NCBI GenBank assembly: GCA_963665095.1
Contig: OY762069.1
Coordinates: forward strand, 3,680,001-3,744,000
Direction: 5' to 3'
Length of the DNA stretch: 64,000 nucleotides
Source: an uncultured Desulfobacter sp.
Lineage (GTDB): Bacteria; Desulfobacterota; Desulfobacteria; Desulfobacterales; Desulfobacteraceae
The position numbers and the translations under genes were made by a program. The notes beneath the pieces were generated by a model. That model saw nothing but the letters and a program-made list of their open reading frames with translations, made no database searches and was not told where the DNA came from. Every line of letters starts with the position of its first letter. Positions within the stretch are counted from its first letter, which is position 1. This document shows, in pieces, positions 24,201 through 47,414 of the stretch.

Positions 24201-24215
24201 AAAGACTTATACTCC

Positions 24216-25010: not shown

Positions 25011-25428
25011 AAATGTCCTACCTTTGACTAATCGAAAAATTCATTATTCGCATTGAAATAGGATATATCTCAATTTATTGTATTAAAAATAGAATTATAT
25101 ACAAAATAATTCATTCATAACCGTCCATACCACACAAACAATACGCACAATCGTTTAGTTTGGTTCGACCTTAAGAAAAGTATAGAGACAGCTACACGAA
25201 GTCAAGACTTTTTTAAAATCGTTTTTGACGAAAATTCACCGAAATGTGGGGTGTGATCAGAAATATATAATTATCAGAAAGCCCTATAAATTCAGATATG
25301 GGCCAGACCAAGGCCGTGCCAACCCAAACGGTGACAGGCGTGAAAACAGCATCGAGACGGGAGAAAGGGACAATTGGGAAACATATTCGTTTTATAGCGG
25401 CTGTAGCGATTCGGAAAAAAGCATGTCA

Positions 25429-25872
25429 CTATATCTCTTCCCAGATAACTTTATCCCCAACGGTTTCAATAAGCTGATCCAAAATCCCCGCATCCTGCCT
25501 GTCCGCAGGGCGCCAGGAATTTAGAAGAACCCAGTCTCCCTCATTATCTAATTTCAGATCTTTTATCACGATCTCCGTGTATTTCAGCATGGATTCACCC
25601 TTGTGCGGCCAGACCTCAAAAGCACGCAAATCAGATATTTCCAAACCAAATTCAGTACAAATCCTGGGGAGAATATACTCAATACAATTGGTGGCCGGCT
25701 CGCCGGCATCATCCCCCTGGTCAATTAAAAGCACCCAGAACTTTCGGGCAGTTGCCTCCCGGGCAATAATCAAGTGGCAAAAGGAGTCAATAAGTTTTGG
25801 ATCGTTCTGCTCTTTTTCTGTACCAGACCCTTTCCAACTGTAAATAGCTGAATATATCACCTTAAAATACAT
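25429..25872 (-). CDS. Hypothetical protein
   Basis: 147-aa ORF with plausible composition and no recognisable motif. Confidence 0.5.
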   Translation of the reverse strand: MYFKVIYSAIYSWKGSGTEKEQNDPKLIDSFCHLIIAREATARKFWVLLIDQGDDAGEPATNCIEYILPRICTEFGLEISDLRAFEVWPHKGESMLKYTEIVIKDLKLDNEGDWVLLNSWRPADRQDAGILDQLIETVGDKVIWEEI

Positions 25873-26008
25873 GAGCGACTCTATATACCCCGCGGATGTT
25901 TCATGGCTGACCCTGCCAATTATATGTTTTTATGTACACCAGAACCTGATCGCCCGTCCGGGAAACACCCAAACGTCCCTCCCATAAAACGGACGGACAC
26001 AGGTTCAG

Positions 26009-27475
26009 CTAAAAGGGAGATTCCAGGGGCATCATACCCATATATACGGATTTAACCTGGGTATAGTGGCGGATGGTTTCCACACCATTTTCTCTGCCGA
26101 TGCCGGAATTTTTATATCCCCCCACCGGCATCTGGGCAGGGGAGTTGCCATAGGCATTGATCCAGCAGATCCCGGCACTGATCTGATGAATAACCCTGTG
26201 GGCCCGCTGTATATCCCGGGTAAATACGCCTGCAGCCAGGCCGTAGGAGGTGGCATTGGCACGCCGGATCACCTCATCTTCACCGGTAAACCCTAAAACC
26301 GCCATGACCGGGCCAAACACCTCCTCTTTGACAAGGGCCATCTCATCGGTGCAGTCGGTAAACACGGTTGGCGGAACAAAGTACCCGTTGCCATTGGCCT
26401 CCGGTAGCGGCGGCAAAGACTCCCCGCAGAGCCGGGTGGCACCCTGGGCCATTGCCGAGTCGATATAAGAGACCACCTTGGCCCGGTGCTCGGAGGAGAT
26501 CAACGCCCCGAAATTGGTGTCCGGATCCATGGGATCCCCCATTTTAATATTATTTAAAACCCGGGTCAAAAGCCGGTCCAGGAAGTCGGACTTAACAGCC
26601 TCATGGACAAAAACCCGGGTGCCGTTGGTGCAAATCTCGCCCTGGGTGTAAAAATTACCCAGCATGGCAGCACTTACCGCCTGGTCCAGATCTGCATCCT
26701 CAAAAATAATCAGGGGGGATTTCCCTCCCAGCTCCATGGTCACATCCTTAAGTGTTGTAGCAGCCCCTGCCATGACTTTCTTACCAGTGCCCACTTCACC
26801 GGTAAAGGAGACCTTTTCAATACCCGGATGCCTGGTAAGCCACTGCCCTACCTGGGCTGCCCCCTGCACCACATTGAACACCCCGTCCGGAACACCGGCT
26901 TCGGTAAATATCCGGGCCAGTTCAAGAGCCCCCCGGGGCGTCTCCTCGGATGGTTTAAAAATCATACTGTTGCCGCAGGCAAGGGCTGGTGCGGACTTCC
27001 AGCAGGCGATCTGCAACGGGTAATTCCAGGCGCCGATCCCGGCACAAACCCCCAAAGGCTCCCTGCGGGTATAGTAAAAATCCCCGCCCAAATCCTGCTG
27101 ACTCCCCTGGATCGCCGGGGCAAGTCCGGCATAAAATTCAATGACATCCGCTCCAGTAACCACATCCACAGCAGCTGCCTCCTGGATCGGTTTTCCAGTA
27201 TCCAAAACCTCTATGCGGGCCAGTTCATTATTGCGTTCCCGCAGCAGGGCCACCGCCCTTAACAGGATTCGGCCCCTTTTTACGGCATCCATGGCCGACC
27301 AGATTTTATATCCCTTTTCAGCGCTTTCAACAGCAGCCTCAAGGATAGTGTCATCTGCTATCTCCACGGAATAGATCTCCTCGCCTGTGGCCGGATTCAT
27401 CACGGGAAAGGTCTTTCCGGTTGTGTTGTCAGTCAGCCGGCCATCGATATAATTCTTACAGCAAAAATCTGTCAT
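26009..27475 (-). CDS. betB: Betaine aldehyde dehydrogenase
   Basis: [45 protein letters not shown]. Confidence 0.95.
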
Positions 27476-27637: not shown

Positions 27638-29119
27638 TTAAAGCGTTATATATTTTTTGACAGTCCGCCGGTCCAGATTAGCAACACGGGATACGGCTTC
27701 ATAGCTGCCGTGCTTTTCATAAAGCCGGGTGCAGTAACGACTGAGCAGGACCTGGGCATTCATGGATCCATCTGCAATCTGCCGGTCAAAGGCATCATCT
27801 GCCGGAAGGGTTTTAAGAATCTCATCCGATTCATAGGAATTCCGGAGCACTACACGCCGCACACACTGTTCCAGTTCCCGGACATTGCCCGGCCAGGGGT
27901 ATTCCAGAGACAGGTGATTTTTAATGTAGTGAAGCACGTGTTCAGCAATTTCAGGTGAAGGGCGCCCCACAATGCGGTTTACCGTATGGGCCAGCAGATC
28001 GGAAAGCTCCTTGGGATCCTGGGCGATGCGCTGCCGCAAAGGGGGGACTGTAATCACATCGGAGCAGAGCCGGTAGTAGAAGTCATCCCTGAAAATCTGC
28101 CGTTCACGGATCTCCCGGATGCTGCGGTTCGTGGCGGCAATGATCCGGCCATGAAACCGATGTTTTTCATTGCTTCCCACAGGGGTATACACCCTTTCCT
28201 GCAGCACATTGAGCAGTTTAATCTGAACATGGGTGGAGAGTTCGCCGATTTCATCAAGAAGGATCGACCCATGGGGACTGCAGCGGTGAAACACCCCTTT
28301 GTGGTCCTTCACCGCCCCGGTAAACGCCCCACGGACATGGCCGAACAGCTCTGATTCAATGATGGTTTCAGGAAACTGGCTGATATTGAGCGTGTTAAAG
28401 GTGTTTATAAAATTGTGGGTAAAGACGTTTTCCTTTTCATTGTAGGGGATATAGCCGGAGCGACCAATGGCAAGGGCAGCTGTACCTTTGCCTGAGCCGG
28501 TCTCACCGAACAGCAGGGTGGTAAAATCCTCCATGCGGTCCCATAAATACTTTTCATACATCAGGATGTTATGGGTAAACACGTTCTGCCACAGGGCTTT
28601 ACGCAACTGCTGGATGCAGTCGCTTCGGCCCACCAGGTGTCGGAAAATAAAATAATAAGCCCGCCGGAACTGAAAGGCCAGGGCCACAAACCGCTGGCTC
28701 TCCTCGACAGTAAACCCCCAGCCTCTCAGCCGTTCCAGGGCCGGGGGGGCAAAATCAACCGTGATGGTCTCTGTGGGGGTACTCAACTGACGGGTGATCA
28801 GGGTATCAATATCTTTTCGGAAGGCATGGAAATAGTCAAACAAAAGGGCGGACCGCAAAAAATAACCATCCTCACCCTCAATGTGCTGAATGTTAATTCT
28901 GCCACGTTTTTCCAATTGTTCCAGGCGCTTTTTAACAATCTGACAAGTTTTACTGACCCTGACATCCCGCTTGATGTCCGGCCGGACACCGGCAATTTCA
29001 GCCTCAAGGCGCACCCGCTCCTCCCCAAACGGATTGGCAGCACCGGCCTCATGCACGCATCTAAAAAAGCCCCGCTCTTCAGGCAGAAGCGATGTAATCT
29101 CTTTCATGAATATTCTCAC
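27638..29119 (-). CDS. Sigma54-dependent enhancer-binding protein with an unrecognised N-terminal domain
   Basis: GETGSGKG, ELFGHVRGAFTGA, LLDEIG, FRDDFYYRL, WPGNVRELE, C-terminal HTH. Confidence 0.92.
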   Translation of the reverse strand: MRIFMKEITSLLPEERGFFRCVHEAGAANPFGEERVRLEAEIAGVRPDIKRDVRVSKTCQIVKKRLEQLEKRGRINIQHIEGEDGYFLRSALLFDYFHAFRKDIDTLITRQLSTPTETITVDFAPPALERLRGWGFTVEESQRFVALAFQFRRAYYFIFRHLVGRSDCIQQLRKALWQNVFTHNILMYEKYLWDRMEDFTTLLFGETGSGKGTAALAIGRSGYIPYNEKENVFTHNFINTFNTLNISQFPETIIESELFGHVRGAFTGAVKDHKGVFHRCSPHGSILLDEIGELSTHVQIKLLNVLQERVYTPVGSNEKHRFHGRIIAATNRSIREIRERQIFRDDFYYRLCSDVITVPPLRQRIAQDPKELSDLLAHTVNRIVGRPSPEIAEHVLHYIKNHLSLEYPWPGNVRELEQCVRRVVLRNSYESDEILKTLPADDAFDRQIADGSMNAQVLLSRYCTRLYEKHGSYEAVSRVANLDRRTVKKYITL

Positions 29120-29355: not shown

Positions 29356-30096
29356 TCAGCCCAGTTTAGCGTCTATTTCCTGAACCATGACATGGCGCAC
29401 TTTTTCCATAAGCACAGTGATATTATCTTTTGTATACCCTTCCACGCGGATGGGGGGATGAATTTTCATCTCCACTTTGCCCGGAAACAGATCCAGGGTT
29501 TTGCAGGGAAGCACATCTCTGGTTCCACTCAAGGTCACCGGCAGAATAGGCAAATTCAAATCCAAGGCCATCTTGAACCCGCCCTTTTTAAACGGCATGA
29601 TCCGGCCATCCATGCTGCGGGTCCCTTCGGGGAAAAAAATCACCGAGGTGCCGTTGACGATTTTTTTCTTGGCAGCGTTAATGGAAGCAAGGGCTGCCTC
29701 ATGGTTGCTGCGGTCTATGAAAATATGGCCCACTTTTTCACAGCCTATGCCGATCCCAGGCACTTTTCTGAGTTCCTGTTTCATCACCCATTTAAAATCA
29801 ATGTTTAAAAATCCGTACAAAACAAAGATGTCAAAGGCACTTTGATGATTGGCAATGACCACATAGGACTGGTTTTTAACAATGTGCCTTCGTCCTGTAA
29901 CCTTTACATAGATGGGTACCAGCCAGGCATGGATTCGCGACCAGATAACCCCGCCGAAAAAACTTGCCACCCGGTCATTAAATACAAAGGCCGTTACCAC
30001 AGCCAACGCACCGAAAAACAAGGTGGAAATAAAGAAAAAGGGAATATAAAAGATCCACTTATAAGGTTGGTAAAGCAAGTATAAAAATTTTTTCAT
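29356..30096 (-). CDS. plsC: 1-acyl-sn-glycerol-3-phosphate acyltransferase
   Basis: NHQSAFD, FIDR, FFPEGTRS. Confidence 0.92.
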   Translation of the reverse strand: MKKFLYLLYQPYKWIFYIPFFFISTLFFGALAVVTAFVFNDRVASFFGGVIWSRIHAWLVPIYVKVTGRRHIVKNQSYVVIANHQSAFDIFVLYGFLNIDFKWVMKQELRKVPGIGIGCEKVGHIFIDRSNHEAALASINAAKKKIVNGTSVIFFPEGTRSMDGRIMPFKKGGFKMALDLNLPILPVTLSGTRDVLPCKTLDLFPGKVEMKIHPPIRVEGYTKDNITVLMEKVRHVMVQEIDAKLG

Positions 30097-30459
30097 ACAT
30101 CACCTTTTTTCCAGGGGCAGCAAAGAGGTCAGCATATATCTTTCCGGCACAAAACACAGTTAATAATGGTTAAAATATTGCAATATAGGATGTCAATACT
30201 CTTTGCATTATTTGGGGCTTCTCGACCGATTCAAACCAATACCCGCATTTTCCACCGCAGGCAGTTCAACCGCCGGCTCAAACGGCCTGTGGCTGCGATG
30301 GGCAATCAGGTGTCCAGTCAAGGTCCTTTTCAAAAACAGGCACGTATGCGGGATCTAATGATCTTTTATCTTTTCCGAAGGATTCCTTTCTGCTAATTAA
30401 TTTTGATTACATACGCTGTGACGAAAAGACGACAACAATACAGTTTCAGGAGATCTTTT

Positions 30460-31755
30460 ATGAGAAATTCTCGCATCTGTTTTTCTATTATATCAAGCTT
30501 TATATACGTCCTGCTGGTTTGCCTTTGTTTTATTATGACTGGATGCTCCCTGATGGAAATTCATAAACAGACCACCCTGGTGGAAAAGGTTGGAACAATC
30601 AAGGGACGCATTATCAACCAGGGCGGTCAGAAAGGACCGGTCATTGTCTTGAGGTTTATTGATCAGCAGGGGGTTCCGGTGCTCATGCAAAGCGTTATTG
30701 CCAATGAAAAAGGAGAGTATGAACTGATTGCTGCTCCGGGCCGGCATTACATTGCCGCGTTTATAGATGCCAACAACGACAGAAAATTCCAGAGCCGGGA
30801 ACATGGCAATTTCTATGGGAATCAACCAAGTTTGATACAGGTTGACGCCCAGAAAGTGACAGCCCTTGAGCCCGTTGTCATCACAGGTTGTTTTCCGAAA
30901 ATTTCAGCAGATTTCCGGCCCATTGATCACATGGTGGGGATGGTAAAAAATATTGGAAAGCTGGCGAGTTTAGACGACCCTGAATTTACCCCGGAAAATT
31001 ATGAAAAGGGATTCTGGAAACCGGTTGATTTCCTGAAAGACGGAGACGGGGGGGTATTTCTTCTCGAGCCCTATCACAAAGAAAAAATCCCGGTGTTGCT
31101 GATACATGGTGTCAACAACGGGCCGACGCTTTGGAAACCGGTGGTTGCGGCCATGGACAGGCAGGCGTTTCAGCCATGGGTTGCCTTTTATCCATCCGGC
31201 CTCCGGCTGGACATGATCAGTGATTTTCTTTCCCAGGCCATGGTCATCCTGCAAAACAAATACGGGTTTAAAAAATTTTATGTGGTTGCCCACAGCATGG
31301 GTGGTCTTGTGGCAAGGTCGTTTATTAAAAAATATATTGCCCAGGATTCAAACAATGTGAATCAAATCGGCCTGACCATCACCGTCAACAGTCCCATGGC
31401 AGGCATGGCATCTGCGTCCGCCGGGGTCAACCACTCTCCCATTGTGGTGCCATCCTGGCGGGATGTGGCTCCGGACAGTGCGTTCCTCCACGGCATCCAC
31501 AACTGGCAATGGCCGGCACAGGTACCTTACCATTTAGTCATATCACATCTGGAATCTGAAGGCTCTGACGGGGTTGTGCCGCTGGAAAGCCAGGCCCGGT
31601 GGAAACTGCAGACAGAAGCCGCCCGTATCTATCTTTTCACAGAGGAACATACCCACATCATCAGCAACAGCCGGTTTCATGATCTTTTGAACCACATTTT
31701 TGAACGGCCACGGGCCGACCTGACACATCATCTGCCAGGCTTCGACCCACAATGA
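30460..31755 (+). CDS. Lipoprotein alpha/beta hydrolase (lipase/PGAP1-like)
   Basis: Lipobox IMTGC; PVLLIHG, AHSMGG, SDGVVP, HTHI. Confidence 0.85.
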   Translation: MRNSRICFSIISSFIYVLLVCLCFIMTGCSLMEIHKQTTLVEKVGTIKGRIINQGGQKGPVIVLRFIDQQGVPVLMQSVIANEKGEYELIAAPGRHYIAAFIDANNDRKFQSREHGNFYGNQPSLIQVDAQKVTALEPVVITGCFPKISADFRPIDHMVGMVKNIGKLASLDDPEFTPENYEKGFWKPVDFLKDGDGGVFLLEPYHKEKIPVLLIHGVNNGPTLWKPVVAAMDRQAFQPWVAFYPSGLRLDMISDFLSQAMVILQNKYGFKKFYVVAHSMGGLVARSFIKKYIAQDSNNVNQIGLTITVNSPMAGMASASAGVNHSPIVVPSWRDVAPDSAFLHGIHNWQWPAQVPYHLVISHLESEGSDGVVPLESQARWKLQTEAARIYLFTEEHTHIISNSRFHDLLNHIFERPRADLTHHLPGFDPQ

Positions 31756-32202
31756 AGTTGGGAAAGTATTTCAGTAACTTATTGAGACTTTGGTATAAAC
31801 ACCCCTGATCCTTATTTTTAGACCCGCTCCTCTCCGACATATCCTAGGCATTTCGATGCTTAGGATATGCATATTTTGTACATAATGAGTGCAAAATATG
31901 CATAAACCCCGATTTTAATCCGAATCGTCCTGATATCAAAACAGACCTTTTTCCAAAATAATTTCAAGGGACTGCACACATTCTTCTCCTCGATGGCACG
32001 AAATTTGTTTAGGCCATGGCCGTATGCTTGAAAAAGGCAGCTGATGCCGTGGCCGGTCCCATACAAGTATCTTAAAGGACCAAAATCATATAGAAACCCT
32101 GTCAAAGCCCCATACAGCAGCCGTTGTGCCGTTCGGAAAATATGTATCTACAGATGTCCGGACAGGCAGTTATCGTGAATTAAACAATTAAGGAGACAAT
32201 TC

Positions 32203-35200
32203 GTGCTGAACCGAATACTTAGTTCCCGTTTACCCCTGTTGGCCTACCATCCGCCTGCAACCTATGATACTGATTTTTTCACAGCGGTCCGGCAGGCAGG
32301 TGCCATGCCTGTACTGGACACTGAATGTTTAGACAGCTTAGAACTGCCCCGGGTCCTGGATCAGATTAAGGCGCAAGACGTACGCCACGGTGTTCGCATC
32401 TATGCTGAAGACAAACATCTCTGGGACTATTTCAATGAGCATCCGGAAACCCTTCCCGAATGTCTCATCATTGCCTATCGCAGTAAAGAGGGGCTGGAAC
32501 AGGCCCCTTCCGTATCTGTGGACTGCCTGATGGTGGAGGTGCGGGACCCGGGCCTTGAAACGCTTTTAAGCACCATAGATCCCCATGGTTTGATTCTCAA
32601 AGGCCGGGAAGCAGGCGGCAGGATATCTTCGCCCTCTTCCTATATCCTGACCCAGTACTATGCCGGGAAAACCCAATTCTTATGCTTTGTTCACGGCGGC
32701 GTGGGCTTTCACACAGCGCCTGGTTTTTTTGCTGCCGGCGCCGCAGGCCTGGTCCTGGATGCCCAGCTCTATCTGGCAGAAGATGCCCCGGTGGCCGATG
32801 CCTTTAAAAATGTTATCCGTCAGATGGAAGAAACGGATACAGCCCTGCTGGATGCAGCGGGCCACGGATTGTTCCGGGTATTTGCCAAACCCGGCACAAA
32901 GGTGGTCCAGGATCTGAACAAAGAGATCAGCCTGAAAAAAGCCAGCAAAGAGTCCCTGGACTTTATTGCCGACAGGCTCCGGCAGAATATGGCCAAACTG
33001 GGCAAAAGCCATGAAGCGCCTATGCAGGCGCTGTTCTACCTGGGCCAGGACGCGGCTTTTGCCAGGCACTTTGCCAAACGGGGCCATTCAATTGCACAGA
33101 TGCTCCATGCCCTGTTTGAGGCAACCGCCCAGGCCCTGAACACCGTGGAAAAATGCGACCCTTTGACCGAAAACTCAAGCCTGGCCAGGGAACACGGCAC
33201 CCGCTTCCCCATTACCCAGGGCCCCATGGCCAATATCTCCGATAACAAAGAATTTGCAAAAGCTGTTTATAAGAACGGGGGCCTGCCTTTTTTCGCCCTG
33301 GGAAGTCTGCCTACGGAAATTGCCGAAAAGATGCTGCCAACGCCTTCTGAACAACTGCCTGTTTTTGGTGCCGGCATGATCGGCATCAAAGCGTTCAACC
33401 CCACCCTGGATCATCACCTGGGCCTGGTAAAGACAAGAAAAGCGCCCTTTGCCCTGTTTGCCGGCGGCATTCCCTCCCAGATCAATGAACTGGAAGCATC
33501 CGGCACCAAAGCCTATCTTCACACCCCCATGCCGGGCGTACTGAAAAACGCCCTGGAAAAAGGGGGCAAGCGGTTTATCTTCGAAGGCAATGAAGCAGGC
33601 GGTCACATCGGCAGCCTGACAAGTTCCGTTCTCTGGGAGCTGAGCCTTGAAACCCTGATGGACCTGCCTGAAGCGAAGTTGTCCGACATCTGTATCCTGT
33701 TTGCCGGCGGTATTGTCTCGGCCAAAGGTTCCCATTTCATATCTGCCATGGCAGCACCGGCTGTCCAAAAGGGGATAAAGGTGGGGATTCAGCTGGGGAC
33801 CGCCTATCTGTTCACCGAAGAGATCGTTGAAACGGGCGCCCTGACAAAGGTTTACCAAAATGTTGTGCGAAAAAAAACCCAGACCGCCGTGATCGGTGCA
33901 ACAGTGGGCCTTTCCTGCCGGACAGCCGGAACTGATTTTGCAGACCAGATGAAGGCAAGGGAGATCCAACGGCTGGCATCGGGTGCCATGAGCCTTTCCG
34001 AGCGCAAATCCGCCTTTGAAAAAGACAACCTAGGCTCCCTTTTGATCAGCGCCAAAGGGGTTACCCCTGATTTTGAAAACAAAAACAACGGGGAGTGGAT
34101 CAGCTACACAAAAGAAGAACAGCTGGAGCACGGCAATTTCATGACCGGTGACGGCCTGCTCTTCTTTGACGGCCAGCTCACCATTGCCCGGATCCATGAA
34201 ATCCTGTTCAAGGAAAAAGCATCGCTTTGGGCCGCCTTAAACGCACTGGAAGTGCTTACCACCCCCTGCGGTCAGATCAATGATGATATTGCCGTGGTGG
34301 GCATGGGCTGCGTGTTCCCCGACGCCCATGATCCTGAAACCTTCTGGCAGAACATCCTGGATAAAAAAGTGAGCATTGGTGAGGTCCCGGATGCACGCTG
34401 GGAAAAATCGCTATATTATGATCCGGATCCCAAGGCCGAAGATAAAACCTACACCAAGATTGCCGGCCTGGTGAATGACTTCAAATTTGATAACGAACGG
34501 TTCGGATATTCGCCTGCCAAGGCTGCCAAGCTCTCACGCAGCCAGCAGATGCTGCTTCATGCAGCTTACCAGGCCGTTGAAAATGCCCGCCTTTTAACCG
34601 ACGATAACCGGATCACCCAAGAGAACCGGGACCGCACCGCCGTGGTGGTTGCCACCTGTTTAGGCAATGAAATGGCATCGGACCTGCACTATAAATATTT
34701 CTTCCCGGAAGTGAAGAAATACCTGGCCCAAGCGCCTGAATTCAAGGCCCTGCCAGACACTGAACAGAAAAAAATAATTGACACCCTGCGCGTTGAAATG
34801 AGCCAGGGCTCTTTGTACGAGCCGGTCCACGGGGTAACCCTGAATATGGAAGCGGCCCGCATTGCCCATCACTTAGGCACCACCGGCACCAACTATGCCG
34901 TGGATGCAGCCTGCGCCACGGCCCTGGCCGCCATTGAATGCGGCATCCAGGAACTGCTTTCCAACAGCCATGACATGGTGATTGCCGGCGGCATCAACAC
35001 CAACCTGGCGCCGGAATCCTTTGTGGGATTCTCCAAGATGGGGACCCTGTCTGCAAACGGATCCTTTCCCTTTGACGCCCGGGCAGACGGGTTTGTCTTG
35101 GGTGAAGGGGCCGGCGTACTGGTACTTAAGCGCTTAAAAGACGCTGTCCGGGACAATGACCCAATCCTAGGCGTCATCAAAGGGGTGGCCTCCTCTTCGG

Positions 35201-38200
35201 ACGGTAAGGGCAAAGGCATTGCCGCCCCCGGCATGGAGGGACAAAAATGTGCCTTCCAGCGCTGCCATGAAAAGATAAAAACCCCGTTCACGCCGGACAT
35301 GGTCCAGTTCATCGAAGCCCACGGCACCGGCACCAAGGTGGGTGACCTGGTGGAAATTGATACCCTGGGACAGGTGTATAACACAGCCTCCCCCACAGGC
35401 GTCTCCTCCATTAAATCCCAGATCGGGCATCTGCTGGGTGCCGCCGGCATGGCCGGTATGATCAAGGCACTTTTAGCCCTGAACCATGAAACCCTGCCCC
35501 CCAACGGGCCCTTTCAAGAACTGTCGCCCAAAATTGACCTTAAGGGCTCCGGCCTCTACATCCTGGACCAGGCAAAGCCCTGGAAAGTCCAGCCTGACCA
35601 GCCGCGTATGGCTGCAGTCAGTGCCTACGGATTCGGCGGCATCAACTACCATGCCGTGGTGGGTGAATTCAACAAAAACACCCCGCTTTTGCCAAGGCAG
35701 ATTTTTGCAGGCCTGGACGATGACCCCAATGACCACCGAATTGTTTTCACAGGTCTTGGGGTTGTGCTGCCCGGGGCCAGGAATGTGGACCAGTTCTGGG
35801 ATGCCATGGTGGCGGGCAAAAAAGCCTACCAGCCCATGCCTGAAGAGCGGCTGCCCAATGCCTATTACGCCGAAGAGACTGAAGCCTCGGGGTTTCGCCT
35901 GCCCATGATGAATGCAGGCATAGTGGATGATTTCCGCCTGGATCCCAAGGTATTCAGGATTCCGCCGGCCGCCATGACATACATGGACCGGGCCCAGCTC
36001 TTCGGCCTGGATGCAGCCGGCCAGGCCATTGACCATGCAGGCATCAAAGACCTGCTCACCGACGGCAACAAGATCGGGGTGATTTTGGGCACCATCTCCG
36101 GCACCCGGAATGTGGAAGCGGTGCTGCGCACCCGAATTCCGTTGCTTTCCCGCATGATCAAGGCCGTTGACGGCGTGGACGGGGCAACCCTTTCCGCCAT
36201 TGCTGAAAATGTGGCAGGCCAGGTAAATGAAAAATACCCGGTAATGACCGGCGACAGTATTCCGGGCATGCTCTCCAACATTGTCTCCGCCCGTATCTCC
36301 AAACACTACAACACCCAGGGCGCCAACTTTGTGGTGGATGCCTCCTGCGCGTCGGCAACCCTTGCCCTGGACATGGCAGTGAAAAACCTTCGGGCCGGCA
36401 ATCTGGACGCCGTGATCACCGGCGGGGTGGACACCAATCTGTATCCGGGCATCCTGCTCTCGTTCAAACGCATCGGCATTCTGGCGGAAAAAGACCCCTG
36501 CCTCTTTGACCAGGAGGCCAACGGCTACGTCATGGGCGAAGGGGCCGCCACCCTGGTGGTGACCACCTATAAATATGCAAAAGCGCATAACCTGCCTGTT
36601 TTAGGAGAGCTCAAAAGCCTGAATCTGTCGGCAAGTGCGCCGGAACACCTGCTCTCCCCGTCTGAAAACCGGTATGAGAAAGTGCTTTCCCAAGACTCAG
36701 GTCAGTTTCACAACCGCAAAAAAGACCTGGCCTACCTTGATGTCTTCGGCGTCTCCCATCCCTTCCTGGATGCCGTGGAAAAACAGGCCATTGAAAAAAG
36801 TCTTCATCATCCTGTGAAATACGGAAACATCAAAACCGAATTTGGATATTTCAAGGCTGCCAACCCGGCCGTGGTCATGACACGGCTTTTACTCATGGCA
36901 GACAAAGGGCAGTTACTGCCCACCCACGGATTTAAACCCGACACAACGATTATTGATAAGGACAGCTTTTTGTCGCCTGTAAAAAATATCACGCCGCTTT
37001 CCACCCAAAGCCTTCTGGGTTCAGATGTCAACGGCATCGGCGGTAACCACGGCCATATGGTTTTAGGCCGTCTACCCCAATACCTTTCCGCAGACACCAT
37101 GAAAACGCCAGTGGCACTGCCTGCTGTTAAGACAGGAAGTTGGCCTGCCATATCTGAGGCAAGACCTTCAGCCACGGTTGTCACAGCGCTTCTCAGCGGC
37201 CAGGGCGCCCAGTTCGGTGGCATGCTGTCAGAACTCTACCGCTCAAAACCGGAAGTTAAAACCATGATGGACTTGGGCGATGCCATCTTCCGGCAGCGCC
37301 GGGGGTACTCTCTGCTGGACTTAATGAAAGCAGGCGGCCCGGACCTGAATCAGACCGAAAACACCCAGCCGGCCATCTTTCTTTCCACCAGTGCCATCTA
37401 CCATGCCCTGAGCCGGAAAGGATTCAGCCCTGATTTTTATATCGGCCACAGCGTGGGTGAATACTCGGCACTTTACTGCGCAGGCATGATTGATTTTAAC
37501 ACTGCCATGAATCTGGTCATGTCCCGTTCCGAGTTCATGGCCAGTGCAGCCAAAGCCAACCCCGGCGGCATCATGGTCCTTTTTGAAGGCGCGGAAAAAA
37601 CCGAAGAGATCATCAGGGCATCCGGCATTTCCGGCATCTGGGCGGTGAATAAAAACAGTGAAAAACAAACCGCTGTTGCAGGAACGACGCCAGGCATTCA
37701 CCAGTTCTGCGGATACCTGAAAACCATAAACATCACCCACAAAAAACTGGCCCTGTCCGCGGCCTTTCACACGCCTTTGATGCAGCCGGCAGCCGACAAT
37801 ATGGCAAAGGTGCTTGCCGACATTGAGTTCAGTGTAGAAAACGCAGATAAAATCATCTCCAATGTCACGGCAGCCCCCTACCCCAAGGATGTCGATACCA
37901 TCCGCACCCAGCTGGCCCGCCAGATTGTCTCTCCTGTGGAGTTTGTTCAGTCTGTCATTGGGGCACATGGCGCAGGCAGCCGCAGGTTTGTGGAAATCGG
38001 TCCGGGCAGGCTGCTTTGCAACCTTCTTAAACATATCTCTATTTCAGATGTAGACGTTCTACCCACCGCAGACGTTAAAATGGGAGAGCTGGCCGCATTT
38101 GAAAATGCCGCTGAAAAATTTGCAGCGAAACCGGAAGAAATGATGCGGGCCCTGCCGGTGACACCCGCGATTCCGGACCGGGGTCCTGATCCCACTCCCG

Positions 38201-41200
38201 AACCGGTACGCGATGTCCCGGCAGACCTCTTGTCAGATGTTGGATTTAAAGCATTTATGCAGGAGAACAACGACCTGGTCCAGGCCGCCCTGAAGCGGGA
38301 ATATGATCTTTTCAGGCAGAAAAAGGCCATGGAAGAGGCGGATAACTTAGGTCTCTACACCGGAGATGTCTGCCTTGCCGGTGTGGCCATCGGCCTTCCA
38401 GGCACCGCCAACCGGGTGTTCAACGAAGACAATTTTGATCAGATCCTGGCCGGCACCAACATGATTGAGCCCCTCACCCAGGAGGAAAAAGCCAAAATTG
38501 TGGACATGAACATCACCCGGGTGTTCAAGGAGCCCAACGGCAATGCCCGGTTTGTGGACATTGTCCGCACCAAGGACGTGATCCAGCTGGCAGGAAAGCT
38601 TGGCTATTTTGACCTGACAGGGGAATACGGCATCAGCCGCAAATTTGACCTGGCAGACGAGCTTGCCATGGCAGCAGGCCTTGAAGCACTGAAAGACGCC
38701 CACATCCCCCTGGTCAAAGGGTATAAAAAGACCTCCACGGGCAGCACGATCCCCAATGGTCTGGTCCTGCCCGAAGAGATGCAGGAGACCACAGGCGTTA
38801 TCATGACAGGGGTTTTCCCGGGCTTAGAGACCCTGCTGCACCAGCTCAACGCCTACTACTACCACAAATTTTACGTCAAACCCTATGATGAGCTGGAAAA
38901 CATCTACTTCCATCTCATGCAGCACCTCACCGACCGGGAGATGAAAGAGGGGATTACCCAGTGGTTCTTTAAAATTTGTGAACGCCGTAAAACCTACGGA
39001 TCATTTAAATTCGAGCGCAATCTGCTCTTTGATATTGTGGCCCTGGGCGGGGCCCACTTTGCCCAGCTCATCCGGGCCAAGGGCCCCAACATCCATCTGA
39101 ACGGGGCGTGCGCCTCCACCACCCAGGCCGTGGGTACGGCCGAGGACTGGATCCGCACCGGACGCTGTGACCGGGTTATCATCATTGGCGGCGAAGGTGC
39201 CACCACTCAAGCCCAGATGCCCTGGGTGGGGTCGGGTTTCCTGGCCATGGGCGCTGCCACCAGCAAAGAGGTGGTGGCCGAAGCGGCCAAACCCTTTGAC
39301 TCGGACCGGGACGGGACTATTCTTGGCTCCGGTGCCGTGGGTCTGGTGGTGGAACGGGCGGACTGTGTTAAACAAAGGGGGCTGAACGGCCAGGCACAGA
39401 TCCTTGGGTCGTTCATCGGTAACAGCGCCTTCCACCCCTCACGCATTGATGTGGACCATCTGGCCGGCCAGCTGCGAAAATTTGTGGCACGAGTGGAGAA
39501 GCGTCATGGCATCAGCCGGTCTGACATCGCTGAAAAAATGGTCTTCATGTCCCATGAAACCTACACGCCTGCCCGGGGCGGCAGTGCATCGGCCGAGGTG
39601 ACCGCATTAAAGCAAGCATTCCCCAATGATTTCGGCCGGATCACCATCACCAACACCAAGGGCTATACCGGCCATACTTTAGGTGCGGGCATTGAAGATG
39701 CCGTCATGGTCAAGGGGTTGCAAAAAGGGATTTTTCCGCCTGTGGCCAACCTGGTCCATGTGCCCGAGGAGTTCAGCGATCTCAACTTTGCAGCCCCTGG
39801 GAACAAAGACTATCAGTTCGGCCTGCACTTCAGTGCCGGATTCGGCTCCCACCACGCGTTTCTGATGGTGCAGCGGCTTGAAGAAAACAAGGTTGAAAAC
39901 AACGAGGTGTACAAGGCATGGCTGGCTAAGATCACCGGCAGTGAAGATCCCATGCTGGCGGTTGTCAATAAAACCCTGTGTGTATTCCCCCGGGACACCA
40001 AACAGCCCCGGGCCAACCGGATTCAGGATACAGACCAGAAAAAAATGGGTGAGGCAGCCGCATCAGGCCATACTGAAGACCTGGCTGCTCAGAGCCGTTC
40101 CGGTGAAACGGCCGCCGCCCCCACACAGAACGGACAGACATCAAAGAAAGATGTCCTGCCCGAAATCACCGCCCTGATTGCCGAACAGACCGGATACACG
40201 GTTGACATGCTGGAGCCGGATCTGGATCTGGAAGCGGACTTAGGCATTGACACGGTCAAGCAGGTGGAAACCTTTGGAAAAATCACAAAGAGCTTTGGCT
40301 TGACGGTTCCCGAGGACATGCAGCTGGCTGAACTGAATACCATCCGCAGAATTGCAGACTATATCAGCAGCCGGATTAAACAGAAAGATACCCAAGGCAA
40401 CCCCACAGCAATCCCGGAATCCGGGGCGTCTGATGCCACAGCCACTTCGGCCATAGACCCGGCCGAGGTAACAGCCAGAATCACGACCCTGATTGCCGAA
40501 CAGACCGGGTACACCGAAGATATGCTGGAACCGGAACTGGATCTGGAGGCAGACCTTGGCATTGACACGGTCAAACAGGTGGAGACCTTTGGCAAAATTA
40601 CCAAGGACTTTGGATTAACGGTTCCCGAGGATCTGGCCATGTCTGAGTTAAACACCATCCAGCGGATTGCCGACTATATTGCCGAAAGCATTGAACCCCT
40701 GGCGGCTCAAAACCCGTCTGCTCCCCAATCTTCCGTTCCCCAACCTTCCGGGGCCATGCCGGAGTCCGGATCAACAGCCGCGCCATCAGGCACCACAGAT
40801 GTGACAAAAAAAATTGTCTCCCTCATAGCCGAGCAGACCGGATACACCGAAGATATGCTGGAACCGGAGCTGGATCTGGAGGCGGATCTTGGCATTGACA
40901 CGGTCAAACAGGTGGAGACCTTTGGCAAAATAACCAAAGCCTTTGGCCTGGAGCTTCCCGAGGATCTTAATCTGGGGGAACTGAGTACCATCCAGAAGAT
41001 CAGTGAGTTTATTTCCGGCCAGTTAGGGGATTCTACAGCCACACGTAGAACATCTTCCGACCAGCCTGTTGAAACACAGACATCACCGGCAACACCCAGT
41101 GAAGGACAGGCAGAAGAGACCCCAGGCGAGAACCCGGAACAAGATAACCAGGACGGCATCCAGGCCTTCAGTTTCGGCCTGCGCAAACTGCCGGAACCAT

Positions 41201-43737
41201 CCACAGTGCCCATGGATTTCACAGGAGAGACCTGTCTTGTCACCCTGGATCAGCATGGGTTTGCAGAAGCCTGTGCAGCGATTCTTGAGAAAAACGGCGC
41301 CAGGGTTATCCGTGTCGGAGATATGGATACCGCAGACTACAGGTTGGACTTGAACGATCTGGATGCGGCAGAGGAAAAACTGTCCGATATCCGGTCTGAA
41401 TACGATCGGATTCACAATCTGTTTTATCTGCACCCCCTGAATTTTGTACTGGATCCGGCGGCAGACACAGATCCGGCAAGTGGTGCGCAAACCACAGCCG
41501 TGACATTGCTTTTCCGGTTGTGTCAGACGCTTTCTTCAGATCTCAAGGCGTCGGGCACCCGTGTGGCATCGGTATCAGTGCAGTCTGCCCTGGCCCGTTT
41601 CCAAAAGCCGGCTCCTGCCAGATTATATCCTGTGTTCAGCGGGATTTCAGGACTGTTGAAAACCCTTGGCAAGGAGTATCCTGAAACCCAGGTAAAATTA
41701 GTGGAGTTTCTCGACCAGGCCGCCCTGGACCACATGGATGATGCCGCACTTTTGTTCCTGGAAGAAGTGGTTTCCGGCAGCAGGCGGGTGGAGGTCGGCC
41801 TTGATGTCACAGAGGGAACACTATCCAGATTCGGCATCCAGGCAAAAATTGAACCACTGGAAAGCCCTGAATCTTCCGACGCGTCTGAACCCCCATTCCT
41901 TATCAGAAAAAAAGATACCCTTCTGGTTACAGGCGGGGCCTGCGGCATCACCTTTGAACTGCTCAAAGCAGTAACCCGACCGGGCATGAAACTGGTGATT
42001 CTCGGCCGCAGCCGGGTGGAAGAAGCTACAGAGGTCCCGGTGACCGACACCATACAGGATGCCGAGATCATGGCGGCACTGAAGTCCAAATATCCGGAAG
42101 CACGCCCCGTGGAGCTGAAAAACAGAACAGCCAGGCTCAGGCGAATTCTTGAAGCCCGCCAGAACCTGGGCTTTCTGCGGGATCAGGGCATAACGGTGGA
42201 TTACCATGCCGTGGATGTAACGGATCAGGCGGCAGTTGCCGGAACCGTGTCCCAATACCCGTCCATTGACGGCGTGATCCATGCGGCCGGCGTTGAACTG
42301 AGCACCATGCTGGAGAAAAAATCCCTGGCTGATTTCTCCCTGGTGTTTGACATCAAGGTCAAGGGTGCAGCCAACCTTTTTGCAGCACTTGAGGGCAAGG
42401 CCTTAAGGTACGCAATCGGATTCTCCTCCATTGCCGCCCGGTTCGGCAACGAGGCCCAGTGCGACTATGCCGCCGGCAACGACCTGATGGGGGCCATGTT
42501 TGCGGCCAGGGCCCTGGACCATCCGGACTGTGCCCATAAAATTTTTGACTGGACGGCCTGGTCCGGCACAGGCATGGCAGCCGGCGGCACCGTGGAAAAG
42601 GTTCTCAAGGAAAAAGGCATTACGTTTCTGCCGGTTTCTGAAGGCATCCGGCACTTTAAAACCCAGCTGGAAAATCCTTTAAGCCAAGAGATCCTCGTTG
42701 CCGCAAGGCCCAAGGCGGACCCTGAAGCATTTGACCGTGACGGAATTCTTGACACCTTTATTGCTCCGTTCCTGGATGCCGTTGTACAGGAGGAAAACCC
42801 GCAGCCGGAAGGCAAGGTCAAATTCAAACGGCGTTTAACTGCTGAACGGGACCTGTTTCTCGCAGACCACACCCGTCAGCAAGTTCCTCTGTTTCTGGGA
42901 GCCACAGGCCTTGAAACCATGGCCGAAGCAGCCCTTGCAAGCACAGGTTTTGAAGGCAGGATTGCCGGGGTGAAGGATTTTAAAATCCCTTACGGCATAA
43001 AGCTGCTTCAAAACCGGCCCAAGCAGATTGAAGTTTCTGCCCAAAGACAGGCGGATGGTTTGATCAAAACCGAGATCACCTCATCCTTTCAGCCCACAAA
43101 AAGAAATAAGGCCCCAAATATGCCGGTAAAACACACCCTGCACTACCAGGGAACCTTTAAGATCACTGGGGCAAAGGCAGTGAACAGTCAAAACCCGGCT
43201 GCAGGCAATGCACTTGGCACCGTTGACGTACCGGAACTGCCCGGGCTGCATACGGATGCCGCCTGGCAGGAACAGATCTACCAGCCCCAACGGCTCTTCA
43301 TGGACGGCTTGTTCCGGTCCGTGGACCAGCTGGTGGCCCTGAAAGAGGACCAGCTCATCACCATGGTGCAGTGGCGGCCGGGACGGCAGTTTTTTAAAGG
43401 CCAGACCCATCCGGCATTTCTCACCCCCGTGGTGATCATGGACGCCATCTTCCAGACCGGCGGTATCCTGGAATTTTTCACCTCCAGGGATGTGGTGCTG
43501 CCCTATGGCATCCAAAGCGCCCAATTTGGCGGACAGGTCCTGCCCAATACGCCGTATATCTGCATTACCCGGCGTACGGACCAGGCAGATGACACCAAAA
43601 CCTATCAGATGCAGCTGGCAGACATTTCCGGCACTATCCTCATTGACATCCAGGATTTTGAAATGGTCAAAGTGGACCGCCTGGCACCGGGAAACCGGCC
43701 GGATCACCCCCTGGTGAAGAACCTGATGGCTGGATAA
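32203..43737 (+). CDS. Pfa-like iterative type I FAS/PKS megasynthase: ER*-ER-KS-KS*(CLF-like)-AT-KS-ACPx3-KR-DH
   Basis: AAGGAG RBS before GTG. EAGGR/EAGGH FabK-type barrels; DAAC-HGTGT-IGH; DASC without His; GQG-GHSVG-AAFH; NGAC-HETYT-TGH; 3x [19 protein letters not shown]; DH...P and DAIFQ. Confidence 0.93.
   Translation: [3844 protein letters not shown]
40165..41010 (+). repeat. Three tandem ACP-coding repeats (about 40165-40365, 40480-40680, 40813-41010)
   Basis: [40 protein letters not shown] repeated three times with synonymous divergence, separated by Pro/Ser/Thr/Ala-rich linkers. Confidence 0.92.
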
Positions 43738-43750
43738 TGATGATGGAAGA

Positions 43751-44467
43751 ATGACCACTCCAGTCTGTTTTTTCGAACAAAACAGTATTGCTTTAGCCCT
43801 GGTCAATATCCCGGAAATGCTGAAAACATTGCTCAAAGGTACGGTGGCACCGGATTATCAAACCCGGCGCTGCCGTATCTTCCGGCAGGATGATTTTTCA
43901 ACGGCATTCCTGTCCCCGAAAGAACTTAACAGCGTCAACCAGTTACATACCTTGAAAAAACAGGTGGAACGGATGGCGGGACGATGGGCGGTGAAATCCC
44001 TGATCGCCGGAGAAACCGGTCAGGCATTAGACAAGATTGTTGTAATTAATTCTAAATCCGGGCACGATGCCGGGGCCCCTGTCCTTGAACCACCCCTTGA
44101 TTATGCCATCTCCATCTCCCACTCCCATGACCATGCCATAGCCGCAGTCATCCCCGATGCCGATTCCAGGATCGGTGTGGATATGGAGGCAATAACCCGC
44201 CTGGACACCTCTGCCCTGCTCCATGCAGGATTCTCAAAAAAAGAACAGCAGATATACCAAAATGCAGATCTTGAAACCATCTTAAAGGTCTGGACCATCA
44301 AAGAAGCTTATCTGAAATATTGCCGCACCGGCCTGAATCGTCCTGTCCGGCAGATCGAATGGATTAACGGCAAACTTTACAACAACCATCGTTTGGTTAA
44401 GGATATTCGGATGAACTCCTGTATTTCCGAAAACATCATCCTGACAGTTATATTTTCCCTTGATTAA
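43751..44467 (+). CDS. 4'-phosphopantetheinyl transferase (Sfp-like)
   Basis: ISISHS, IGVDME, WTIKEAYLK. Starts 13 bp after the megasynthase stop. Confidence 0.92.
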   Translation: MTTPVCFFEQNSIALALVNIPEMLKTLLKGTVAPDYQTRRCRIFRQDDFSTAFLSPKELNSVNQLHTLKKQVERMAGRWAVKSLIAGETGQALDKIVVINSKSGHDAGAPVLEPPLDYAISISHSHDHAIAAVIPDADSRIGVDMEAITRLDTSALLHAGFSKKEQQIYQNADLETILKVWTIKEAYLKYCRTGLNRPVRQIEWINGKLYNNHRLVKDIRMNSCISENIILTVIFSLD

Positions 44468-45692: not shown

Positions 45693-46226
45693 ATGAAAGG
45701 CATAATAGTAAATTGTCTGCAGGAGATGGTGGACAAAATGCATGGTGGGCAGCCGGTCTGGCAAGATATATTGAAAGCAGCCGGTTTAGATCCGTTTACC
45801 ATCTATTCCGGCTCAGACGATGTGGCTGATGGGGAAGTTTTGAAACTCTTTGGCGAGACAGCCAACGTACTGAACATTTCCCTTGCTCAGGCCGAGGATG
45901 GCTTTGGGGAATATTGGGTTTGTCATTTCGCACCGCGCATTTACGAATTCTTTTATCGAGATGCCGGCAGTGCCAAAGCGTTTATCAATAAAATGGGTTC
46001 TGTCCATCTGGTGACGACAGAAAGCATGCCCAATGTGCAACCACCTCAGTTTGAATATGACTGGCAGGCCCCACATATTCTGATTCTTCGATATATTTCA
46101 CAGCGGGGGTTAATCGATTTATTCATAAGCTTACTCAAAGGTGTCGGCAAATACTATCAGGAAGATCTTCAGATTAAAAAACTAAGTCAAGATCAGGTTG
46201 AGATCATATTTCCCCCGGGAAATTGA
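45693..46226 (+). CDS. Stand-alone H-NOX (heme NO-binding) protein
   Basis: MKGII N-terminus, proximal His (VHL), QPP, YxSxR (YISQR), GGAGGA RBS. Confidence 0.9.
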   Translation: MKGIIVNCLQEMVDKMHGGQPVWQDILKAAGLDPFTIYSGSDDVADGEVLKLFGETANVLNISLAQAEDGFGEYWVCHFAPRIYEFFYRDAGSAKAFINKMGSVHLVTTESMPNVQPPQFEYDWQAPHILILRYISQRGLIDLFISLLKGVGKYYQEDLQIKKLSQDQVEIIFPPGN

Positions 46227-46307
46227 TACCGCTGCGGATTTATGTGAAAAAAACCGGGGACATAAATGGGTTTGGCTTTAAAATATAAATTCTGATAAAA
46301 GCCAGAT

Positions 46308-47414
46308 ATGTACGATGTAATTATCATAGGTGCCGGTCCAGCCGGAACAGCTGCCGGGTATTACCTTGCCCGGAAGGGATTTTCCGTGCTGTTGCTTGAC
46401 CGGCGCAGCTTTCCAAGGAAAAAAGCATGTGCGGGCGGGATCACACCCAAGGCCATGGCCCTGTTTAATTATGATATCTCCCATCTGGTATGCCGCACTT
46501 TCCGGGAGATTAAAATCGTCCGGCCCGGGAATAGATCATTTATCATAAAAAATAAAAATCCCCTGTGCTATATCACCCGAAGATCTGAACTGGATGCTTA
46601 TTCCCTGACCCGGGCAAGGGCTGCCGGCTGCCGGTTTAAAAAAATTGACAAACTGACCAGCCTTAAACAGGACGGCCATGGGGTAAGCCTGACGGTGATT
46701 CAGGATGGTGAGCCCGTCTGCTATACATCGCAGTATTTGATTGGTGCGGACGGGGCCAATTCAAAAACTCAAAGGCTGACAGGAAGGACCGCAGTTTCTT
46801 CCAATGTCAAACTGCCGGCTCTGGAGGCTGATGTCAGGGTGTCGTGTGCTGCCGGGTATGCCATGGAATTTGATTTTTCAAAAAATTTTTCAGGGTACTA
46901 CTGGCTTTTCCCAAGGAAACATCATGTGAATATTGGAATCTTCAGTGCCCGGGCAGATGGACATTTAAGTCAGAAACTATTGGTCCGGTATGCACGGTTA
47001 CGGTTTGGGACAGGTCTGCTCAGTGACGTCAAAGGATACCCCATTGGAACCAGCCAGGGCACTGTTACACCGGGCAGGGGACGCGTACTTCTTGCCGGAG
47101 ATGCCGCAGGCCTTGCAGAACCCTTACTCGGGGAGGGTATTTATGCGGCCCTGAAATCGGGAATCCTGTCAGCCAGGGCGGTTGAATACGCCCTTAATCT
47201 TTCTTTCGCACCACCGATTGCGGCCATGGATTGGTACAGACAGGCGTTAAGCCCCCTGCTTTGGGACCTGTGGCTGTACCAGCGCAGCGCTTTCATCATG
47301 TATCGGTTCCCGGGGCCGGCTCTGGCCGCAGCGTCACGGCCGATGCTGCATAATTATTTTTCCCGGGGCTATGCCCGGGCAAAAACCCTGCACGAAATGC
47401 TTCTTCCCTTTTAA
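46308..47414 (+). CDS. Geranylgeranyl-reductase-family FAD oxidoreductase
   Basis: GAGPAG, FPRKKACAGG, IGADGANS, GYYWLFP, GDAAGLAEPLLGEGI. Confidence 0.88.
   Translation: MYDVIIIGAGPAGTAAGYYLARKGFSVLLLDRRSFPRKKACAGGITPKAMALFNYDISHLVCRTFREIKIVRPGNRSFIIKNKNPLCYITRRSELDAYSLTRARAAGCRFKKIDKLTSLKQDGHGVSLTVIQDGEPVCYTSQYLIGADGANSKTQRLTGRTAVSSNVKLPALEADVRVSCAAGYAMEFDFSKNFSGYYWLFPRKHHVNIGIFSARADGHLSQKLLVRYARLRFGTGLLSDVKGYPIGTSQGTVTPGRGRVLLAGDAAGLAEPLLGEGIYAALKSGILSARAVEYALNLSFAPPIAAMDWYRQALSPLLWDLWLYQRSAFIMYRFPGPALAAASRPMLHNYFSRGYARAKTLHEMLLPF

What the first reader, a model, noticed from the sequence alone, without database searches (positions are those of the whole stretch)
40165..44467. Megasynthase whose three ACPs all carry Thr at the phosphopantetheine site, with a dedicated PPTase next door
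Seen: each ACP reads DLGIDTVKQ, with ACG codons at 40252, 40567 and 40900 (residues 2684, 2789, 2900). I found no Ser-type ACP in the protein or in the window. The repeats differ at synonymous sites yet all keep Thr, the KS/AT/KR/DH catalytic motifs are intact, and a PPTase starts 13 bp downstream. Established: carrier proteins are phosphopantetheinylated on an invariant Ser (Pfa ACPs read LGIDS). Inference: this may be a system where a specialised PPTase primes threonine, which would be an orthogonal carrier/PPTase pair. Otherwise these ACPs are non-acylated scaffolds and a trans ACP does the work.
Basis: partly seen in the sequence, partly recalled or inferred. Interest (0 to 1): 0.88.

Follow-up and report, generated by a model that had tools for sequence, protein, structure and literature searches.

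The report
Threonine-armed carrier proteins in lipid megasynthases
A giant fatty-acid-synthase-like enzyme, shared by many bacteria and archaea, has threonine where carrier proteins normally have the serine that holds their cofactor arm, and a partner enzyme inherited with it likely attaches the arm to that threonine, which would break a textbook rule but is untested.

Summary
The 3,844-aa protein (ER-KS-CLF-AT-KS-ACP3-KR-DH) plus PPTase matches Shulse & Allen's Type S secondary lipid synthase; that paper's main text never mentions serine.

Among 150 homologues picked by KS3 alone, carriers read Thr 337, Ser 11, eroded or gapped 15. All four Thr codons are used, and Ser forms nest inside Thr clades.

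In 251 genomes of the order, 40 of 42 with the synthase carry this PPTase class, against 1 of 209 without.

102 of 301 genomes of an archaeal phylum carry the synthase, often with the PPTase fused. 82 of 89 Thr-only genomes have one PPTase and no surplus carrier count. That leaves little room for a trans Ser carrier.

Best reading (0.8): the PPTase primes Thr; E. coli ACP S36T is reported unmodifiable. Not shown: the modification itself, a Thr-specific PPTase motif or clade, strict orthogonality (Ser revertants keep the enzyme), or the product.

The parts
32203..43737 (+). 3,844-aa iterative type I FAS/PKS megasynthase (Type S architecture plus DH)
   Evidence: PfaA model 877 bits, below its 1010 cut-off; Type S domain order from supplement
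32203..34242 (+). N-terminal enoyl-reductase region: FabK/NMO-like domain (res 333-592) preceded by a 320-aa domain with no Pfam hit, inferred to be a degenerate copy
   Evidence: degenerate-copy reading is inference from a shared GxEAGG motif
34282..35673 (+). KS1, catalytic C904/H1040/H1076
35740..37077 (+). KS2, CLF-like (Cys kept, both His lost)
37180..38082 (+). Acyltransferase, GHSVG S1750 and AAFH H1856; malonyl preference inferred
   Evidence: specificity rule recalled
38365..39882 (+). KS3, catalytic C2303/H2451/H2491; family marker used for carrier-blind searches
40144..40374 (+). ACP1, Thr2684 (ACG at 40252)
40459..40689 (+). ACP2, Thr2789 (ACG at 40567); predicted four-helix ACP fold with Thr as first residue of helix II
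40792..41022 (+). ACP3, Thr2900 (ACG at 40900)
41155..42702 (+). Ketoreductase (structural and catalytic halves), S3409/Y3422
42760..43692 (+). PKS-type dehydratase, H3556/D3747
43751..44467 (+). 238-aa Sfp-fold PPTase; H124, D144, E146, K184, E185, K189 kept
31994..32009 (+). Sigma-54 -24/-12-like site (TGGCAC-N5-TTG) 209 nt upstream; a like site lies upstream in 14 of 14 relatives checked
   Evidence: consensus match only, no shuffle control
27638..29119 (-). Sigma-54 activator gene, likely regulator; divergent and directly adjacent to the synthase in many relatives
   Evidence: similar divergent ORF in L011, L014, L017, L020, L022, L023; Pfam hits in L156, L179

Best explanation
The three carriers have Thr at the phosphopantetheine site, and the co-inherited Sfp-fold PPTase likely attaches the arm to that Thr, so the protein would work as a self-contained iterative reducing fatty-acid-type synthase. 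Shown: the Thr, its conservation and codon pattern, intact catalytic residues, and co-inheritance or fusion of the PPTase. Inferred: Mg-dependent transfer of 4'-phosphopantetheine from CoA to the Thr hydroxyl; AT loading of malonyl units; condensation by KS1/CLF and KS3; KR-DH-ER reduction to a long acyl chain handed to a lipid acceptor (there is no thioesterase domain); sigma-54 control. The PPTase probably accepts Ser too, and housekeeping PPTases probably prime the Thr carriers poorly, which would give one-way insulation. The product is not identified.
For: Carrier-blind KS3 search: 113 of 128 representatives with a carrier are Thr-only; domains are 337 Thr, 11 Ser, 7 eroded, 8 gapped. A second carrier-blind set: 387 Thr, 0 Ser, 6 gaps in 120 proteins. 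All four ACN codons occur (250 Thr, 4 Ser in 77 loci). Intact motifs vary only between the two hydroxyl residues, and Ser-only forms nest in starred Thr clades. Thr aligns with the Ppant Ser and starts helix II. A PPTase is fused in 34 of 150 representatives, 29 of them Thr-only. PPTase residues H124/D144/E146 are kept in 81 of 81 Thr-associated sequences and K184/E185/K189 in 80 of 81; the fold matches Sfp/AASDHPPT. Order sample: PPTase class in 40 of 42 genomes with the synthase, 1 of 209 without. Archaeal sample: PPTase in 97 of 102 with, 12 of 199 without; 82 of 89 Thr-only genomes have one PPTase and no surplus carrier count. In 5 of 6 genomes checked by position, the only carriers are the Thr ACPs and the only PPTase is fused to them. 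KS1, AT and KR catalytic residues are kept in Thr-only proteins. Acyl-CoA carboxylase, BioY or FabI genes flank many loci.
Against: No biochemical evidence exists. E. coli ACP S36T cannot be phosphopantetheinylated (PMC3340395, passages), so the chemistry is disfavoured in the canonical case. No Thr-specific PPTase residue was found: K69/E73/F161 are shared by the PPTases of Ser revertants. The PPTase tree is unresolved. G465 (97% complete) has the Thr synthase but no high-scoring PPTase of the class, and G510 has the PPTase but no KS3 hit. 7 of 98 archaeal proteins keep one Ser carrier and 2 are Ser-only. Archaeal genomes are of unstated completeness, and the 82-genome figure compares counts, not positions. 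The PPTase threshold was set afterwards at a score gap, 15 of 36 profile rows come from the tested order, and related genomes are not independent. This genome has nine Ser carriers that the PPTase could also serve.
Confidence: 0.8

Rival explanations
1. Thr is primed, but nothing is special about the PPTase: the TVKQ helix-II context makes Thr acceptable to any broad Sfp-type enzyme. This is compatible with the best explanation and removes only the orthogonality claim.
For: No Thr-specific motif or clade. G465 lacks the PPTase class but has three other PPTase matches. The same enzyme is kept with Ser revertants.
Against: The class is retained beside a general Sfp-type PPTase in this genome and even when unlinked (13 of 40 genomes). 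E. coli enzymes do not modify S36T.
Confidence: 0.3
2. The Thr carriers are unarmed scaffolds, and a separate Ser ACP primed by this PPTase carries the chain in trans.
For: Nine Ser carriers exist in this genome. Canonical Thr mutants are dead. A few family members keep a Ser carrier.
Against: No other carrier is found in 5 of 6 archaeal genomes checked by position. None of the 150 best PF00550 places listed for 301 archaeal genomes lies in an ORF under 640 aa; 142 weaker places were not listed. The site swaps only with Ser in intact motifs.
Confidence: 0.05
3. The synthase runs on CoA thioesters, or the Thr carries another group (such as an acyl ester), and the PPTase domain has a different job.
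For: ACP-independent fatty acid synthesis has been reported in archaea (recalled, not read here). No direct data on the modification exist.
Against: Tandem carriers of normal ACP fold, a near-invariant recognition motif and an intact PPTase active site would all be kept without need. Claisen condensation requires a thioester (established knowledge).
Confidence: 0.07
4. Serine is misincorporated at Thr codons by an error-prone threonyl-tRNA synthetase, and this small Ser fraction is the active form.
For: ThrRS can misactivate Ser (recalled). Multiple carriers per chain would raise the odds.
Against: A true Ser codon is one base away and is rarely used. The trait spans bacteria and archaea.
Confidence: 0.02
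5. Strain-specific decay spread between repeats by gene conversion.
For: All three codons in this strain are ACG.
Against: Thr is the norm across phyla with all four codons, the repeats are only 74-78% identical, and catalytic residues are intact.
Confidence: 0.01

Closest known systems
Type S secondary lipid synthase (Desulfobacterium autotrophicum HRM2; Shulse & Allen 2011, PMC3098273)
   Same: Domain order ER-KS-CLF-AT-KS-ACP3-KR with the PPTase as the next gene (supplement File S1); PPTase hShxH motif; same taxonomic order; product uncharacterised.
   Different: The main text has no occurrence of 'serine' or 'threonine' (listing). A C-terminal DH is present here but not in their domain list. 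I did not read the HRM2 protein itself.
Type R secondary lipid synthase (Roseiflexus, Solibacter, Koribacter, Elusimicrobium; same paper)
   Same: Shares the KS-AT-KS3-ACPn-KR core, a downstream PPTase and carboxylase neighbours. Proteins named Roseiflexus sp. carry Thr carriers.
   Different: Lacks the N-terminal ER and the CLF domain. Their 'CLF' corresponds by position to KS3, which keeps Cys/His/His.
PfaA/PfaE PUFA synthases
   Same: Tandem carriers with LGID, iterative logic, a dedicated PPTase.
   Different: Pfa-like carriers in this genome read DSIK[KR], against DTVKQ here. Single polypeptide; PKS-type DH; score below the PfaA cut-off.
Sfp / human AASDHPPT / PcpS PPTases
   Same: Predicted fold and catalytic residues.
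   Different: 17-21% identity. Known substrates are Ser carriers (PMC7949117 passages).

Membership tests
Type S secondary lipid synthase | Single ORF ER-KS-CLF-AT-KS-ACP3-KR | tested here: met
Type S secondary lipid synthase | Adjacent PPTase with P1b' motif hShxH | tested here: met
   43751-44467, ISHSH at 122-126
Type S secondary lipid synthase | KS phylogeny groups with the HRM2 protein YP_002604438 | not tested
   That accession was not fetched; KS1 groups with Desulfobacterales orthologues
Acyl carrier protein (PF00550) | Four-helix ACP fold, profile over cut-off | tested here: met
Acyl carrier protein (PF00550) | Conserved Ser at the start of helix II | tested here: not met
   Thr in all three
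Acyl carrier protein (PF00550) | Covalent 4'-phosphopantetheine | not testable with these tools
   needs mass spectrometry
Sfp-type PPTase | About 240-aa pseudodimeric fold | tested here: met
Sfp-type PPTase | GxDxE and (W/F)xxKEAxxK catalytic motifs plus SH | tested here: met
   residue roles recalled from Sfp
   Clear score gap within the order; tree unresolved; no motif absent from Ser revertants
PfaA PUFA synthase | TIGR02813 cut-off and pfaABCDE organisation | tested here: not met
   877 vs 1010 bits; single gene plus PPTase
PfaA PUFA synthase | Makes polyunsaturated fatty acids | not testable with these tools
   product unknown

The most novel reading that the evidence does not exclude
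A widespread family of lipid megasynthases uses O-phosphopantetheinyl-threonine, a protein modification I found in none of ten library searches. It is installed by its own, often fused, PPTase and is invisible to housekeeping PPTases. In about a third of sampled genomes of one archaeal phylum it forms a complete ACP-dependent type I fatty-acid-type synthase with its own carboxylase, giving these archaea a route to acyl chains.
Probability: 0.5. Interest if true: 0.92.

Novelty: new variant of a known kind. Interest (0 to 1): 0.82.

Why it matters
Serine is treated as invariant at this site: S36T is used as the dead control for E. coli ACP, and annotation tends to read a non-Ser carrier as inactive. 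Natural priming of Thr would add a post-translational modification, correct how thousands of proteins are read, and offer a carrier/PPTase pair for selective labelling or insulated pathways. It is cheap to test with an 80-aa and a 238-aa protein. The archaeal spread bears on whether and how archaea make fatty acyl chains.

Tried and rejected
Complex prediction of ACP + PPTase + CoA + Mg was not available, so there is no docking result either way.

RNA evidence: only one RNA run with a small share (X1), giving short, mostly divergent pieces; not used.

Search for a Thr-specific PPTase signature: K69, E73 and F161 differ from Actinomycetota fused PPTases but are kept in Ser revertants; rejected. 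The PPTase tree is a quick tree only, with deep forks open.

(586 Thr of 591) was set aside as primary evidence because the query contained the motif. G377 and G525 were dropped from the 40 pattern hits: Phe codon, no synthase domain. CLF, KR and second-His tallies were mis-indexed or mixed with KS1; one search replaces the KS1, KS3 and KR ones, and the CLF tally is not used. The DH regex (27 of 113) is too strict to interpret.

The neighbouring plsC and alpha/beta-hydrolase genes are not adjacent in the relatives viewed, so I did not count them as parts. A terminator scan after the PPTase found nothing above chance. Earlier-finding look-ups returned nothing relevant. The PPTase review 10.1039/c3np70054b is not held.

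Full report
OBSERVATION. The ORF at 32203-43737 encodes 3,844 aa. It reads DLGIDTVKQ three times, with Thr at residues 2684, 2789 and 2900, each coded ACG at 40252, 40567 and 40900. A 238-aa PPTase follows after 13 nt. The repeats are 74-78% identical in DNA, with 17-23 synonymous codon differences per pair. Contigs of a public run, possibly the source, cover all three codons without a difference. The Thr aligns with the Ppant Ser of solved carriers. In an AlphaFold model (pLDDT 92) it is the first residue of helix II, and the model matches ACP structures at TM about 0.8. Within the window there is no other carrier, but the 6.9-Mb genome has nine more, all with Ser, and one more PPTase of Sfp type.

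ANATOMY. The order is ER-like region, KS1, KS2, AT, KS3, ACP x3, KR, DH. KS1, KS3, AT, KR and DH keep their catalytic residues; KS2 has lost both His and is CLF-like. There is no thioesterase. This matches Type S of Shulse & Allen 2011 (ER-KS-CLF-AT-KS-ACP3-KR plus PPTase; supplement rows), whose shorter relative is Type R (section 7). A sigma-54-type site lies at 31994, with a like site upstream of 14 of 14 relatives checked (no shuffle control). A sigma-54 activator gene lies at 27638-29119 and is directly divergent in many relatives.

IS THR A FAMILY TRAIT? A search with the carriers gave 586 Thr and 5 Ser in 120 proteins, but that query favours Thr. I therefore selected proteins by KS3 alone. 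Of the best 150 representatives (472 at E 1e-30 or better), 128 had a carrier hit: 113 Thr-only, 3 Ser-only, 3 mixed Ser/Thr, 6 Thr plus an eroded copy, 1 eroded only and 2 truncated. The 363 domains were 337 Thr, 11 Ser, 7 other residues (all in eroded motifs) and 8 gaps. A second KS3-based set of 120 proteins, whose named members are Chloroflexota including Roseiflexus sp., gave 387 Thr, 0 Ser and 6 gaps. In 251 genomes of the window's order, 41 had KS3: 38 showed Thr, 2 broke off before the carriers, and 1 (G332, closed) had Ser, DLGIDSIKQ. Across 77 loci all four Thr codons are used (250 Thr, 4 Ser; the pattern required the flanking motif), although Ser is one base away. In a FastTree of KS1 (111 of 153 rows had a full domain), G332 and P0169 nest inside starred Thr clades, so these Ser forms look like reversions. 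In the 113 Thr-only representatives the catalytic residues stay: KS1 Cys 78 of 80, AT Ser 94 of 98, KR Tyr 81 of 82, the misses being gaps.

DOES THE PPTASE GO WITH IT? The model (pLDDT 94) has the Sfp/AASDHPPT fold. H124, D144 and E146 are kept in 81 of 81 Thr-associated PPTases, and K184, E185 and K189 in 80 of 81. A profile of 36 such PPTases splits the order sample at a gap between E 3e-37 and 4e-27: 41 genomes lie above it. Forty of the 42 genomes with the synthase are among them, and 1 of the 209 without (G510). G465 (97% complete) and G436 (64%) have the synthase without this class. In 13 of the 40 the PPTase is unlinked or on another contig, and ten loci had none in the fetched flank. 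Caveats: the threshold was set afterwards, 15 profile rows come from this order, and kin are not independent. The PPTase is fused to the C-terminus in 34 of 150 representatives, 29 of them Thr-only. No Thr-specific motif or clade was resolved.

THE ARCHAEAL TEST OF THE TRANS-CARRIER RIVAL. In 301 genomes of the phylum of G001, 102 have the family carrier. The tool does not name the phylum; G001's record title says Halobacteriales archaeon, and named archaeal hits are Thermoplasmatota. I ran no marker-gene check. I read 98 of the 102: 89 Thr-only, 7 with one Ser copy and 2 Ser-only (294 Thr, 11 Ser, 3 gaps). A PPTase occurs in 97 of 102, against 12 of 199 others. 82 of the 89 Thr-only genomes have exactly one PPTase and no more PF00550 hits than family carriers; this is a count comparison. 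By position, G001, G053, G207, G252 and G276 have no carrier but the Thr ones and no PPTase but the fused one; G148 has extra NRPS-sized ORFs with a second PPTase beside them. None of the 150 best PF00550 places lies in an ORF under 640 aa; 142 weaker places were not listed. Completeness of these genomes is not given. Acyl-CoA carboxylase subunits, BioY or a FabI-type reductase flank many archaeal and Chloroflexota loci, so the module supplies its own extender units. An intact PPTase fused to carriers that offer only Thr, in genomes with no other visible substrate, is the strongest argument here.

MECHANISM. Most likely (0.8) the PPTase transfers phosphopantetheine from CoA to the Thr hydroxyl, and the synthase then cycles as an iterative reducing enzyme to build a long acyl chain for a lipid. 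The modification, the extender and the product are inferred. The main counter-weight is that E. coli ACP(S36T) 'cannot be post-translationally modified by 4'-PP' (PMC3340395, passages; also used as an arm-less control in bioRxiv 10.1101/2025.06.16.659903, passages). I recall a similar result for spinach ACP (not read). That makes the natural case surprising and suggests that housekeeping enzymes will not serve. Because Ser revertants and mixed proteins keep the same PPTase, it probably accepts both residues; insulation would be one-way at most.

LITERATURE. Ten full-text searches found no report of a Thr-primed carrier or of this motif; most results I saw only as listings with abstract openings. 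Subscription journals are mostly not held, so a prior report cannot be excluded.

VERDICT. Real, conserved and, as far as I could search, undescribed. The synthase family is known; the Thr carrier is a new variant that would amount to a new modification if confirmed. Interest 0.82.

Noticed in passing
window 31994-32009 and 27638-29119: Sigma-54-type promoter site upstream of the synthase, matched in 14 of 14 relatives checked, and a sigma-54 activator gene that is directly divergent in many relatives.
   Followed up: partly
window 29356-31755: A plsC-like acyltransferase (-) and a secreted-looking alpha/beta hydrolase (+) sit between regulator and synthase here but not in the relatives viewed; probably an insertion.
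   Followed up: partly
L179:3427-14334 (G332): Orthologue whose two carriers read DLGIDSIKQ, nested among Thr forms, with the same PPTase class about 1.3 Mb away: a natural Ser control.
   Followed up: partly
L127-L146, L183-L242: About a third of sampled genomes of an archaeal phylum carry this synthase, often with fused PPTase and flanking carboxylase, BioY or FabI genes; some have extra carriers at the N-terminus (L142-L144, L146).
   Followed up: partly
L047:4447-18217: Corallococcus terminator has a split, multi-gene cluster of different layout whose four carriers also have Thr (DTVKQ, DTITQ, DTVTQ), with its own PPTase.
   Followed up: no
L137, L138, L141, L125: In one archaeal subclade only the first carrier has Ser and the rest have Thr, with a single fused PPTase where the C-terminus was seen.
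   Followed up: partly
L181:6839-14590 (G000:C1 near 1.33 Mb): A second Pfa-like synthase (2,584 aa) in this genome has two Ser carriers and no PPTase hit in the 20 kb fetched.
   Followed up: no
L149:8208-8978 (G510): A PPTase of this class in a genome with no KS3 hit: recent loss of the synthase, an assembly gap or a changed substrate.
   Followed up: partly
window 45693-47414: An H-NOX gene is followed by a geranylgeranyl-reductase-family flavoprotein.
   Followed up: no
window 22536-27475: GMC oxidoreductase, GntR regulator and betaine-aldehyde dehydrogenase, likely choline-to-betaine oxidation.
   Followed up: no
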